A stretch of DNA of 64,000 bases from an uncultured Candidatus Micrarchaeota archaeon (GTDB taxonomy: Archaea; Micrarchaeota; Micrarchaeia; Micrarchaeales; CABMGC01). Of this stretch, positions 43,502 through 48,224 are shown one piece after another. The translations under genes were made by a program, and so were the position numbers. The first letter of the stretch is position 1, and each line of letters starts with the position of its first letter. The DNA lies in contig CAWHXT010000005.1 in assembly GCA_963833485.1 (NCBI GenBank), forward strand, positions 114,845-178,844, given 5' to 3'. Under the pieces are notes generated by a model, which was not told where the DNA came from, made no database searches, and was given only the letters and a program-made list of their open reading frames with translations.

Positions 43502-43717
43502 TTATGTCTTCTTCTTTGACATCTTTTTTACTATCTTTTCGACATAATTAACAGCAAGGCCTAAGACTATAGCTAAAATTGCTAGGTAATAGAAAATTGT
43601 TCCCTTTCCTGCACATGATGAGATGACACATAGTTGACTCGAGTTGATAAAGAATCCTAAGGTCAGTGCTATGGCTCCAGTCCCGAACCAAGCAAAACTA
43701 TTTCTCGAAAACTTCAT
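43502..43717 (-). CDS. Small membrane protein
   Basis: Two TM segments, basic tail. Confidence 0.5.
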   Translation of the reverse strand: MKFSRNSFAWFGTGAIALTLGFFINSSQLCVISSCAGKGTIFYYLAILAIVLGLAVNYVEKIVKKMSKKKT

Positions 43718-43826
43718 AAGATTAAAACAACCTTAAAGTATTTAAAATATTGCAAGATTTAGTAAATGCTGGAGGCATAAATGCAGGCCAAAGCGCCAAT
43801 AAATAACTTACCTACATAGTCTTTTT

Positions 43827-44015
43827 ATGGACAATTATCTCAAACTGCTCAGTTCTGGGCTTCTTTTAGCCGTTGTAGGAGCAGTTGGTATTTTGAGCAA
43901 ACAAAATGACCCGCTAGCAAATTTTCTCTTCTGGGCGTTGTTTCTTTTGGGCGGATTCATCTTGTTAGGTTTTAAAGGAGGATTTTGGAAGAAGTGGCTT
44001 CGGCGTAACAAATAA
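43827..44015 (+). CDS. Small membrane protein
   Basis: Two TM segments, basic tail; ends next to the tRNA-Ser 3' end. Confidence 0.5.
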   Translation: MDNYLKLLSSGLLLAVVGAVGILSKQNDPLANFLFWALFLLGGFILLGFKGGFWKKWLRRNK

Positions 44016-44017
44016 AA

Positions 44018-44139
44018 CGCCAGGGTAGGGATTTGAACCCTAAAGCCCTTGCGGGCACTGGTTCGCTTGTTTTCGCATCACTAATCAGCTCTTGAGAAAA
44101 CCTCAAGACCAGCGCGTTACCAGATTCTGCCACCCTGGC
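44018..44139 (-). tRNA. tRNA-Ser(TGA) with 38-nt intron at 37/38 (44064-44101)
   Basis: GCCAGGG/CCCTGGC-G73, long variable arm GCCC-GCAA-GGGC, CTGGT-CT-TGA-G[intron]A-ACCAG, BHB helix CTTG/CAAG. Confidence 0.93.
44064..44101 (-). ncRNA. Putative intron-encoded minimal C'/D' K-loop guide for Um34 of the host tRNA
   Basis: GUUUUCUCAAGAG-CUGA-UUA-GUGAUGC; guide complementary to tRNA 31-39. Confidence 0.65.
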
Positions 44140-44196
44140 ATAATTAACATTCTGCTTGCTACCTTTATATCGTTTTCTAGGATTTAGAATAGATAT

Positions 44197-44451
44197 TTAA
44201 TGTGCCTGAGCTGCCTGATCTCTTCTTAGTTTCATTTCACTTGCTATTGGATAGGTCTCAAAAAGGATACCTTCAGACTGATCTTCAAACTCCTTCCAAG
44301 TCTCAGCAGGTATCTCGTCAGGGTTGCTGTAACTTTTGACCTTCTCATAAAGCTCCTTAAAGACTGAAGTCCTCAGTGCTTCATCAAGCTTAGGGTCAGC
44401 GGCTATATCTCTTAGCCACCCTGCTCTATCCACGACTTTTTGTCTATACAT
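44197..44451 (-). CDS. Hypothetical protein
   Basis: 84-aa ORF with AT-rich upstream region. Confidence 0.5.
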   Translation of the reverse strand: MYRQKVVDRAGWLRDIAADPKLDEALRTSVFKELYEKVKSYSNPDEIPAETWKEFEDQSEGILFETYPIASEMKLRRDQAAQAH

Positions 44452-44508
44452 AATTTAATTTATGTTGCAAAAATATTTATTCTTTCCGATAATTTTTCTG
44501 AAAAAAAA

Positions 44509-48027: not shown

Positions 48028-48088
48028 TAAAATCGTTAAATAATAGGCAGCAAAATTTAATAAAGGTACTTTTTAACAGACGCTTAGT

Positions 48089-48163
48089 TGCTCCCATCGG
48101 GATTTGAACCCGAGTTTCTGGGTTGAGAACCCAGCGTCCTTGGCCGGGCTGGACGATGGGAGC
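48089..48163 (-). tRNA. tRNA-Glu(CTC), intronless
   Basis: GCTCCCA/TGGGAGC-A, CTGGG-TTCTCAA-CCCAG, TTCAAAT T loop. Confidence 0.95.
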
Positions 48164-48224
48164 AAAGTAATTTATCCTTTTTCAGATAATATCTATTTGC
48201 TGCTTATTAATATTTGCTGGTTCC

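What the first reader, a model, noticed from the sequence alone, without database searches (positions are those of the whole stretch)
44064..44101. 38-nt tRNA-Ser intron appears to be a minimal self-targeting C/D guide for wobble U34
Seen: the intron reads GUUUUCUCAAGAG-CUGA-UUA-GUGAUGC-GAAAACAAGCG. GCUGA/UGAUGC forms a textbook K-loop (G-C, C-G, U.U, tandem G.A). The bases before CUGA, UUCUCAAGA, are the exact complement of spliced tRNA positions 31-39 (UCUUGAGAA), crossing the splice junction, and the N+5 rule lands on U34. In the precursor the same guide can form a 7-bp hairpin with 31-37 that competes with the BHB splice fold. Known: euryarchaeal tRNA-Trp introns carry full two-guide C/D RNAs for positions 34 and 39. 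I know of no single-K-loop 38-nt version or one in tRNA-Ser. Inference: a minimal guide acting in cis before splicing or as an excised circle, possibly a methylate-then-splice switch.
Basis: partly seen in the sequence, partly recalled or inferred. Interest (0 to 1): 0.88.

Follow-up and report, generated by a model that had tools for sequence, protein, structure and literature searches.

The report
Self-targeting methylation guide in tRNA-Ser intron
The 38-base intron of a serine tRNA gene in a tiny Micrarchaeota archaeon carries a strongly conserved half-size copy of the RNA element that normally guides sugar methylation, aimed at the tRNA's own wobble base, which would be a natural example of a guide type so far made only in the test tube.

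Summary
A tRNA-Ser(UGA) gene lies on the minus strand (44139..44018). Its 38-nt intron (44101..44064) sits at 37/38 in a canonical bulge-helix-bulge fold.

The intron loop holds UCAAGAG-CUGA-UUAG-UGAUGC. This is an antisense stretch to nt 31-37 abutting a D'/C' K-loop, and it puts U34 at the N+5 position.

One copy alone is not beyond chance: the K-loop consensus occurs 7 times in the genome against 4.6 expected. Comparison decides it:
- The element is in 166 of 176 sampled genomes of two Micrarchaeota families and in no other family sampled.
- CAAGAG-CUGA and UGAUG are invariant while the rest of the intron varies freely.
- The loop is replaced in some lineages by a hairpin plus a 3-nt bulge, which is a true K-turn.
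- N+5 is G in 22 of 29 Ser(CGA) paralogues.
- Position 37 covaries with N8.

Fibrillarin and L7Ae are encoded here, Nop5 in 40 of 40 relatives, and canonical C/D sRNAs obeying N+5 exist in this genome.

Best reading (0.6): a natural halfmer C/D guide that methylates nt 34 in the precursor before splicing. No methylation, protein-binding or RNA evidence exists. I call it a new variant of a known kind.

The parts
44018..44139 (-). tRNA-Ser(UGA) gene with intron (pre-tRNA of 122 nt)
   Evidence: Rfam RF00005 at 40.3 bits, E 4.7e-05, model 1-71. The long variable arm is read.
44102..44108 (-). Target strand: tRNA nt 31-37 (UCUUGAG). U34 is at 44105 and the anticodon UGA at 44105..44103
   Evidence: Direct reading. 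Pairs with the intron guide: 95.5% of cells paired on A2, with two covarying pairs.
44064..44101 (-). 38-nt intron between nt 37 and 38
   Evidence: Boundaries follow from the BHB geometry (bulges AG|G and CG|A). The spliced loop CUUGAGA is a normal 7-nt anticodon loop.
44096..44100 (-). 5' strand of the outer BHB helix h' (UUUUC, intron nt 2-6). The first U's also extend the guide in this genome
   Evidence: Complementary to intron nt 28-32. Present in the BHB-constrained fold.
44089..44095 (-). Guide UCAAGAG (N7..N1). N2-N7 are antisense to nt 31-36, N5 (44093) lies opposite U34, and N1 G pairs with the last base of the C' box
   Evidence: CAAGAG is invariant in 30 of 30 UGA genes. N5 is G in Ser(CGA) genes. 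There is no G.U anywhere in N2-N7 in 45 sequences.
44085..44088 (-). D' box CUGA
   Evidence: Invariant in 45 of 45 sequences. Consensus taken from passages read.
44081..44084 (-). K-loop linker UUAG
   Evidence: Varies in sequence and length (2-11 nt). In some lineages it is replaced by a covarying hairpin followed by exactly 3 nt, which is a K-turn.
44075..44080 (-). C' box UGAUGC
   Evidence: UGAUG is invariant and the last base is C or U, giving G-C or G.U with N1.
44070..44074 (-). 3' strand of the outer BHB helix h' (GAAAA)
   Evidence: Complementary to intron nt 2-6.
44066..44069 (-). 3' strand of the central 4-bp BHB helix (CAAG, pairs with nt 32-35)
   Evidence: the strand varies (CAAG, CAGG, CGGG, CACG, AAAG and others) and mostly keeps pairing through G.U; 91.8% of cells paired.
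44163..44170 (-). A/T-rich box ATATAAAG, 24-31 nt upstream of the tRNA 5' end. Promoter candidate
   Evidence: Direct reading. That an archaeal TATA box lies at about this distance is recalled, not tested.

Best explanation
The intron is a natural halfmer box C/D guide built into a canonical BHB intron.

**Proposed mechanism**
1. In the precursor, the anticodon loop (nt 31-36/37, often plus the first intron bases) pairs with the intron's antisense stretch. This gives a 7-10 bp hairpin that abuts a D'/C' K-loop. This step is shown by comparison.
2. L7Ae binds the K-loop, and Nop5-fibrillarin is placed on the duplex. This step is inferred.
3. The ribose of nt 34, opposite the fifth base upstream of CUGA, is 2'-O-methylated. 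That gives Um34 in Ser(UGA) and Cm34 in most Ser(CGA). This step is inferred.
4. The RNA then refolds into the mutually exclusive BHB fold and is spliced. That the two folds exclude each other is shown; the order of events is inferred.

The same pairing could also form between two precursor molecules.
For: **Conservation**
- Full-length matches including the intron are in 38 of 40 relatives.
- CAAGAG-CUGA-U and UGAUG are invariant in 30 of 30 UGA genes, while the other intron columns vary in sequence and length.
- All 45 distinct genes parse as guide-G-CUGA-(2-11 nt)-RUGAUG-Y.
- An exact pattern is found in 168 of 401 genomes of the phylum sample: f1 76/82, f3 90/94. The single hit elsewhere is not in a tRNA. 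The reversed-pattern control gave 0.

**K-turn geometry.** Several lineages replace the linker by a covarying hairpin followed by exactly 3 nt before GAUG: UC[UUCG]GA+GAU, UCC[UUUU]GGA+GAU, UC[UUAG]GA+AAU and GC[UAA]GC+GAU.

**Pairing with the target**
- Pair 34:N5 reads U-A 10, C-G 5, other 1. Pair 37:N8 reads G-C 6, A-U 4, G.U 3, other 3. None of 500 shuffles reached the observed score.
- 20 of 26 listed CGA genes carry G at N5, and no listed UGA gene does.
- N2-N7 never use G.U in 45 sequences, whereas the BHB strand often does.
- The spacing is fixed, so N+5 falls on nt 34 in all 64 sequences examined.

**The cis hairpin**
- It has 7-10 bp in 63 of 64 sequences and never more than 10.
- It is more stable than spacer shuffles: mean z -1.54, with z < -1 in 39 of 57.
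- It is at least as stable as the BHB fold in 35 of 45.

**Machinery and rule in this clade**
- Fibrillarin E 8.8e-79 and L7Ae E 1.3e-27 in this genome.
- Nop5 in 40 of 40 relatives.
- Two canonical C/D sRNAs in this genome pair 10 bp with tRNA-Leu(CAA) and with 23S rRNA. The first puts C34 at N+5 and is conserved in 28 of 41 genomes.

**Feasibility.** Halfmer C/D RNAs, including C'/D'-only ones, guide site-specific methylation in vitro, and the substrate duplex is limited to about 10 bp (passages of PMC7229835).
Against: - There is no direct evidence of methylation, L7Ae binding or even expression.
- The Watson-Crick guide core is only 6-8 bp, against 10 bp for the canonical sRNAs of the same genome.
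- There is only one K motif. One in vitro study found a single-site complex active but not site-specific (passages of PMC1635284).
- 7 of 29 Ser(CGA) genes have A opposite C34, so pairing at the target is not always kept.
- The C' box ends in C or U rather than the consensus A.
- Families that lack the intron also lack any stand-alone guide of this kind: 3 chance-like hits in 401 genomes. Their tRNA-Ser genes are intronless. So Nm34 on tRNA-Ser is not a general need.
- Nop5 was not found in this assembly, which is 75% complete.
- No Rfam C/D family reaches significance on the intron: E 2.6-9.9.
Confidence: 0.6

Rival explanations
1. A conformational gate without methylation. The antisense hairpin plus an L7Ae-bound K-loop holds the precursor in a non-spliceable fold or chaperones it. 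This would time or control splicing, or shield the anticodon, and no methyl group is transferred.
For: - There are two conserved, mutually exclusive folds.
- The hairpin is as stable as the BHB fold or more so in 35 of 45.
- A.C at position 34 is tolerated in 7 of 29 CGA genes.
- There is a single K motif and a short guide.
Against: - A fixed spacing that puts nt 34 exactly at N+5 in 64 of 64 sequences is not needed for a mere gate.
- Nor is the strict absence of G.U in N2-N7.
- The motif is the D'/C' unit of the canonical sRNAs of the same genome, with the same CUGA-UUAG-UGAUG spacing.
- No benefit of delaying splicing is evident. Sister families manage with intronless genes.
Confidence: 0.2
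2. A guide acting only in trans. The excised intron, probably circular, is a stable small RNA that methylates mature tRNA-Ser or another RNA, and the cis hairpin is incidental.
For: - There is a precedent in the tRNA-Trp intron acting in trans and being stable as a circle (passages of PMC4090602; PMC3326292).
- In this genome complementarity runs to spliced nt 38-39, giving 9 bp.
- The A-type guides in some CGA introns match tRNA-Ser(UGA) rather than their own tRNA.
Against: - Pairing to nt 38-39 is not conserved.
- The helix is instead often extended by the first intron bases next to nt 37, which are joined to the target only in the precursor.
- No other target was sought beyond the rRNAs and tRNAs of this genome.
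Confidence: 0.12
3. A chance resemblance or neutral intron sequence with no function of its own.
For: The K-loop consensus alone is not enriched in the genome: 7 found against 4.6 expected.
Against: - 15 or more intron positions are invariant across two families while their neighbours vary.
- There is covariation with the anticodon and with nt 37.
- The linker is replaced by structure-preserving K-turn hairpins.
Confidence: 0.02

Closest known systems
Intron-encoded box C/D RNA of archaeal pre-tRNA-Trp (Haloferax volcanii; Pyrococcus sR50)
   Same: It lies in the 37/38 BHB intron of a tRNA. It is antisense to the host tRNA's own anticodon region, with nt 34 at N+5. The guide pairing and the splice fold exclude each other. 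A Trp intron of this type is also present in this genome and in 36 of 41 genomes searched.
   Different: - The host is tRNA-Ser (UGA and CGA), not Trp.
- The intron is 35-48 nt instead of about 65-72.
- It has one box pair (D'/C') instead of C/D plus C'/D'.
- It has one guide of 6-10 bp instead of two guides, and no target at nt 39.

A 2014 review calls the Trp case a unique example (passage).
Engineered halfmer C/D RNAs (Yang et al. 2020, PMC7229835) and the hemi-complex of Hardin and Batey 2006 (PMC1635284)
   Same: A single set of boxes plus one guide. The hemi-complex even links guide and target in one hairpin, as here. The duplex is limited to about 10 bp.
   Different: Those are laboratory constructs. 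The 2020 paper asks whether halfmers exist in cells and doubts that C'/D'-only ones assemble, in eukaryotes. This one is natural, conserved and embedded in an intron. Its activity is untested.
Stand-alone archaeal C/D sRNAs that target wobble nt 34 of tRNAs (Pyrococcus: Leu-CAA, Leu-UAA, Met, Trp; Pyrobaculum: Trp, Gln, Val, Thr)
   Same: The target position and the N+5 rule are the same (passages). This genome has such an sRNA for tRNA-Leu(CAA) C34.
   Different: Those are bipartite, act in trans, and use 10-12-nt guides. None is reported for tRNA-Ser in the passages read.
Ordinary archaeal BHB tRNA introns
   Same: Canonical position 37/38, two 3-nt bulges, and a 4-bp helix that pairs with the anticodon loop.
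   Different: Ordinary introns have a median length of 12-25 nt (passage) and no conserved sequence of their own. Here a second antisense copy and a K-loop are conserved at the sequence level.

Membership tests
Archaeal BHB (hBHBh') tRNA intron | Two 3-nt bulges separated by a 4-bp helix, with cleavage inside the bulges, at position 37/38 | tested here: met
   Direct reading. The central helix is fully paired (G.U allowed) in 32 of 45 sequences and has one mismatch in most others. 91.8% of cells are paired on A2.
Canonical bipartite box C/D sRNA | Terminal C box (RUGAUGA) and D box (CUGA) forming a K-turn closed by a terminal stem | tested here: not met
   There is only one CUGA and one UGAUG in the intron. 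No second box pair appears in any of 45 sequences. Rfam C/D families score E 2.6-9.9.
Canonical bipartite box C/D sRNA | Internal D'/C' boxes forming a K-loop | tested here: met
   This is met at the sequence level: G-CUGA-(2-11 nt)-RUGAUG-Y in 45 of 45. The spacing is the same as in the canonical sRNA of this genome. Hairpin plus 3-nt bulge variants occur.
Canonical bipartite box C/D sRNA | Guide of about 12 nt directly upstream of D/D', pairing about 10 bp with the target, with the modified nt opposite N+5 | tested here: inconclusive
   N+5 falls on nt 34 in 64 of 64. The Watson-Crick run to the tRNA is 6-8 bp in 41 of 45. In cis the helix reaches 7-10 bp with intron bases.
Canonical bipartite box C/D sRNA | L7Ae, Nop5 and fibrillarin are encoded | tested here: met
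   Fibrillarin and L7Ae are in this genome. Nop5 is not found here, in an assembly 75% complete, but is found in 40 of 40 relatives.
Canonical bipartite box C/D sRNA | The target is 2'-O-methylated in a guide-dependent way | not testable with these tools
   No RNA run was listed. There are no modification data.
Halfmer C/D RNA | One set of C/D-type boxes and one adjacent guide | tested here: met
   The definition comes from passages of PMC7229835.
Intron-encoded C/D RNA of pre-tRNA-Trp | Hosted in tRNA-Trp, with two guides for nt 34 and nt 39 | tested here: not met
   The host is tRNA-Ser. There is a single guide and no complementarity placing nt 39 at N+5.
K-turn / K-loop (L7Ae site) | Tandem G.A/A.G pairs flanked by a 3-nt bulge (or loop) and a non-canonical stem | tested here: inconclusive
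   The sequence fits, and the covarying C-stem is followed by exactly 3 nt. Structure and L7Ae binding cannot be tested here.

The most novel reading that the evidence does not exclude
A natural single-K-motif C/D RNP works strictly in cis as a methylate-then-splice checkpoint. The precursor is born in the guide hairpin, which is at least as stable as the splice fold. Only after L7Ae-Nop5-fibrillarin has methylated nt 34 and left can the BHB fold form. So every spliced tRNA-Ser is guaranteed to carry Nm34. On this reading the element arose once in the ancestor of two Micrarchaeota families, by capture of the D'/C' half of an sRNA into an intron.
Probability: 0.25. Interest if true: 0.88.

Novelty: new variant of a known kind. 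Interest (0 to 1): 0.76.

Why it matters
**A second intron-encoded guide.** Reviews I read in passages describe the tRNA-Trp intron as the only tRNA intron that encodes a modification guide.

**An open question becomes testable.** The field still debates whether a single box pair can direct site-specific methylation, and whether halfmer guides exist in cells at all. Here is a halfmer that evolution has kept nearly unchanged in about 170 sampled genomes. It is joined to its substrate in one small RNA of about 55 nt (anticodon arm plus intron). That makes the question directly testable in vitro with three recombinant proteins.

**Wider points**
- It gives a concrete reason why an intron is retained in a very reduced genome.
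- It offers a compact natural scaffold for programmable 2'-O-methylation.
- It suggests that tRNA introns in uncultivated archaea should be screened for short antisense-plus-K-loop units that standard C/D finders miss.

Tried and rejected
**Tried, with nothing useful**
- ARAGORN in its default mode missed the gene. It was found with introns allowed.
- RNA evidence: no RNA holder was listed for window 43700-44500.
- Rfam at a permissive threshold gave only noise-level C/D-box hits on the intron.

**Searches that came back negative**
- Stand-alone sRNA for the Ser wobble base: the pattern matched 3 of 401 genomes. I inspected one hit, which sits in what looks like coding sequence with no further boxes. 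No Rfam hit fell on any of the three.
- Element outside the two families: the one f10 hit and a relaxed-pattern hit in G216 are not in tRNA contexts.
- K-loop introns in other tRNAs of the order: a pattern anchored on the T-loop found tRNA-Ser genes almost only. Four listed rows were other loci in which the CUGA is not a D' box, for example the anticodon loop itself.

**Readings considered and dropped**
- H/ACA-like reading: there is only one guide strand and no ACA box.
- Acetylation guide: the target in Ser(UGA) is a U.
- I first suspected that the canonical sRNA at C5:213301 was an anti-guide, because its D guide repeats the Ser anticodon loop. It is simply the guide for tRNA-Leu(CAA) C34, whose loop is complementary to that of Ser(UGA).
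- Independence of the 34:N5 covariation: exon and intron comparison of ten genomes suggests one old CGA paralogue with a G-type guide, plus later changes and exon homogenisation. I therefore do not claim many independent compensations.

**Tools and papers not available**
- Supplements were not requested. Supplementary tables of PMC6009581 and PMC7668247 could list tRNA-Ser wobble methylations or guides that I did not see.
- Papers not held: PMC92551 and PMC1289080. They are cited only through other papers' reference lists.
Full report
**What is at the coordinates**

The feature lies on the minus strand.
- Rfam's tRNA model matches 44139..44018 at 40.3 bits, with a 41-nt insert in the anticodon loop.
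- ARAGORN finds the gene as tRNA-Ser(tga) once introns are allowed. Its default run missed it.
- Read 5'-3', exon 1 is 44139..44102, the intron 44101..44064 (38 nt) and exon 2 44063..44018.
- The anticodon UGA is at 44105..44103, and the long variable arm fits tRNA-Ser.
- An A/T-rich box lies 24-31 nt upstream and a T-run follows the 3' end.
- It is the only tRNA-Ser(UGA) gene found in the assembly.

**Two folds are written in the intron**

*The splice fold.* This is a canonical hBHBh' motif.
- nt 32-35 (CUUG) pair with intron nt 33-36 (CAAG).
- The bulges are AG|G and CG|A.
- The outer helix is UUUUC (nt 2-6) with GAAAA (nt 28-32).

*The guide fold.* The 21-nt loop of the splice fold holds UCAAGAG-CUGA-UUAG-UGAUGC.
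- The first part is a second antisense copy to the anticodon loop (nt 31-37).
- It is followed by a D' box, a short linker and a C' box. This is the order of the internal K-loop of archaeal C/D sRNAs. The consensus and the N+5 rule come from passages of PMC6009581; the detailed pair geometry beyond the two G.A pairs is recalled.
- The base five positions upstream of CUGA pairs with U34.

**Is one copy more than chance? No**

G-CUGA-(1-10 nt)-RUGAUG-Y occurs 7 times in the 770-kb assembly, against 4.6 +/- 1.9 in dinucleotide shuffles. Two of the seven are in tRNA-Ser introns. The second is a tRNA-Ser(CGA) gene on another contig (G000:C6:20572-20694) with a 39-nt intron of the same build.

**Comparison settles it**

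The organism is a small archaeon: 770 kb in 6 contigs, 75% complete. The closest fibrillarin genes lie in MAGs labelled Candidatus Micrarchaeota.

*Distribution*

| Search | Result |
|---|---|
| BLAST of the 122-nt precursor against 40 relatives (three families of one order) | full-length matches including the intron in 38 |
| Parse of all 45 distinct genes (39 UGA, 6 CGA) as guide-G-CUGA-(2-11 nt)-RUGAUG-Y | 45 of 45 |
| Exact pattern over 401 genomes sampled from the phylum | 168 hit: f1 76/82, f3 90/94, f2 0/1, all other families 0 |
| Reversed-pattern control in the same search | 0 |
| Looser pattern anchored on the T-loop, 121 genomes of the order | 110 hit: f1 52/60, f3 57/59, f2 0/1; nearly all are tRNA-Ser |

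- The one hit outside f1 and f3 is not in a tRNA.
- In the alignment of 30 UGA genes, CAAGAG-CUGA and UGAUG are invariant. The 5' part of the intron, the linker and the 3' BHB strand vary in sequence and length.
- The one genome of the sister family f2 has intronless Ser(UGA) and Ser(CGA) genes. One genome of another family has an intronless Ser(CGA) gene.

**Evidence that the box pair is a K motif**
- The base before CUGA is always G, and the base after UGAUG is C or U, giving G-C or G.U.
- In several lineages the short linker is replaced by a small hairpin whose stem covaries: UC/GA, UCC/GGA, GC/GC.
- That hairpin is followed by exactly three bases (GAU or AAU) before the G.A pairs.
- This is the canonical-stem plus 3-nt-bulge layout of a true K-turn.
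- The tRNA-Trp introns of the same genomes use the same layout, xUGA-hairpin-GAU-GAUGA, with covarying hairpins.

**Evidence that the antisense stretch pairs with the anticodon loop**

On the 16-sequence alignment that includes six CGA genes:
- The helix 31-37 with N2-N8 is 95.5% paired.
- Pair 34:N5 reads U-A 10, C-G 5, other 1.
- Pair 37:N8 reads G-C 6, A-U 4, G.U 3, other 3.
- None of 500 shuffles reaches the observed covariation, and slid controls pair at 23-63%.

Further points:
- Within the window's own genus, nt 37 and N8 run through G-C, G.U and A-U.
- Among the rows listed, 20 of 26 distinct CGA genes have G at N5 and 6 have A. No listed UGA gene has G. Three more CGA genes add 2 G and 1 A.
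- N2-N7 contain no G.U pair in 45 sequences. The BHB 3' strand uses G.U freely: CAGG 11 times, CGGG 3 times, and others. The antisense stretch is thus under a stricter constraint than a plain helix.

**The hairpin forms in the precursor**

Folding the stretch from U31 to N2 gives a hairpin of 7-10 bp in 63 of 64 sequences and never more than 10. It has one of two forms:
- a continuous helix, or
- six pairs, one bulged base (N8), then about four more pairs made by nt 37 and the first intron bases.

Supporting numbers:
- Against shuffles of the spacer the real hairpins are more stable: mean z -1.54, z < -1 in 39 of 57, z > 0 in 7 of 57. I count this as moderate support.
- By nearest-neighbour energies the guide fold is at least as stable as the BHB fold in 35 of 45 anticodon arms, with a mean difference of 1.5 kcal/mol. 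These energies ignore K-turn pairs and proteins.
The Watson-Crick run from N2 is 6 bp in 21 sequences, 7 in 11, 8 in 9 and 9 in one, which is this genome.

**The machinery and the rule are in use in this clade**
- Fibrillarin (E 8.8e-79; Pfam check) and L7Ae are encoded.
- Nop5 is missing from this incomplete assembly but present in 40 of 40 relatives.
- The genome has at least two canonical C/D sRNAs. One pairs 10 bp with tRNA-Leu(CAA) and puts C34 at N+5. The other pairs 10 bp with 23S rRNA.
- The Leu guide is conserved in 28 of 41 genomes.
- The tRNA-Trp intron carries a guide that puts C34 at N+5.
- So RNA-guided wobble methylation already operates here on Leu and probably on Trp. The D'/C' unit of the Leu sRNA (CUGA-UUAG-UGAUGA) has the same spacing as the Ser intron.

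**Most likely mechanism (confidence 0.6)**
1. The precursor folds into the guide hairpin next to the K-loop.
2. L7Ae binds.
3. Nop5-fibrillarin methylates the ribose of nt 34.
4. The RNA refolds into the BHB fold and is spliced.

Shown: the conserved K-motif sequence, pairing of the guide with nt 31-37, the mutual exclusion of the two folds, the fixed N+5 geometry and the presence of the proteins. Inferred: protein binding, methyl transfer and the order of events.

In vitro work makes this feasible. Halfmer C/D RNAs, including C'/D'-only ones with an open-ended guide, direct site-specific methylation, and the enzyme accepts duplexes of at most about 10 bp (passages of PMC7229835; PMC9670817). 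An older study found a one-piece single-site complex active but not site-specific (PMC1635284). The 2020 paper ascribes that result to an over-long 15-bp duplex.

**What speaks against it**
- There are no modification, binding or expression data.
- The core guide is short, and there is only one K motif.
- 7 of 29 CGA genes have an A.C mismatch at the target. Exon and intron comparison suggests these are later departures from an old G-type paralogue, or recent anticodon switches.
- Relatives without the intron have no substitute guide. Nm34 on tRNA-Ser is therefore a lineage-specific trait at most.

**Rivals**
- An L7Ae-dependent folding or splicing gate without methylation (0.2). It does not explain the fixed N+5 geometry or the ban on G.U.
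- A trans-only guide made from the excised intron (0.12). It has the Trp precedent, but the helix extension by intron bases speaks against it.
- Chance (0.02).

**Comparison with what is known**
- It works like the tRNA-Trp intron guide, but it fails that family's defining features: the host tRNA and the two guides.
- It also fails the canonical C/D definition, because it has no terminal C/D pair.
- It meets the definition of a halfmer C/D RNA, a class so far engineered or only suspected in human cells.
- Six full-text searches and term look-ups in two papers on Micrarchaeota splicing endonuclease found no description of a tRNA-Ser intron guide or of a natural single-K-loop guide.
- Reviews read in passages name only the Trp case.
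- I therefore rate it a new variant of a known kind.

**Limits**
- Genome counts are samples of a larger group and the genomes are related, so the counts are not independent.
- Two relatives (G003, G038) are unpublished. They enter the counts, but no conclusion rests on them.

Noticed in passing
G000:C6:20572-20694 (+), outside the window: A paralogous tRNA-Ser(CGA) gene with a 39-nt intron of the same build. The guide has G at N+5 opposite C34. The 3' BHB strand still reads CAAG, which leaves a C.A mismatch in the splice helix.
   Followed up: yes
G000:C5:213301-213345 (+), outside the window: A canonical C/D sRNA preceded by an A/T-rich box. Its D guide pairs 10 bp with tRNA-Leu(CAA) and puts C34 at N+5, and it is conserved in 28 of 41 genomes. 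The Leu(CAA) and Ser(UGA) anticodon loops are complementary. So this guide repeats 7 nt of the Ser loop and could pair with the Ser intron's guide. Its D' spacer is only 8 nt.
   Followed up: partly
G000:C6:95557-95605 (-), outside the window: A second canonical C/D sRNA. Its D' guide pairs 10 bp with 23S rRNA (gene positions 1932-1941, N+5 at 1935). No target was found for the D guide, and the two guides are partly complementary to each other.
   Followed up: partly
G000:C6:93849-93993 (-), and L148-L176 in relatives: The tRNA-Trp intron (72 nt here) has a K-turn made of xUGA, a covarying hairpin, GAU and GAUGA. After it comes a roughly 12-nt guide that puts C34 at N+5 from a weak D' (AUGA, UUGA or ACGA). 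In several genomes of family f3 the D' position reads ACAA or GCAA, so these may also work with a single K motif.
   Followed up: partly
G000:C5:354949-355046 (+), outside the window: The tRNA-Leu(CAA) gene has about 13 extra bases inside the T-loop. This looks like a non-canonical intron (sequence).
   Followed up: no
whole assembly G000: About ten of some 30 tRNA genes carry introns. Only Ser(UGA), Ser(CGA) and Trp introns hold box motifs. Ser(GGA) has a plain 13-nt intron. ARAGORN mislabels several of the intron-containing genes, for example as 'Pyl' or 'Ser aga'.
   Followed up: partly
whole assembly G000: No Nop5 (PF01798) gene was found, although fibrillarin and L7Ae are present and 40 of 40 relatives have Nop5. 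Fibrillarin is not next to a Nop5 gene here. Its upstream neighbour on the other strand is a PAS-domain protein.
   Followed up: partly
window 48087-48164 (-): An intronless tRNA-Glu(CUC) gene lies 4 kb from the tRNA-Ser gene.
   Followed up: no
G176, G267, G197 (loci L180-L183, L186, L187): In one genus the Ser(CGA) and Ser(UGA) genes have identical exons apart from the anticodon, but different introns. This suggests exon homogenisation or recent anticodon switching between the paralogues.
   Followed up: partly
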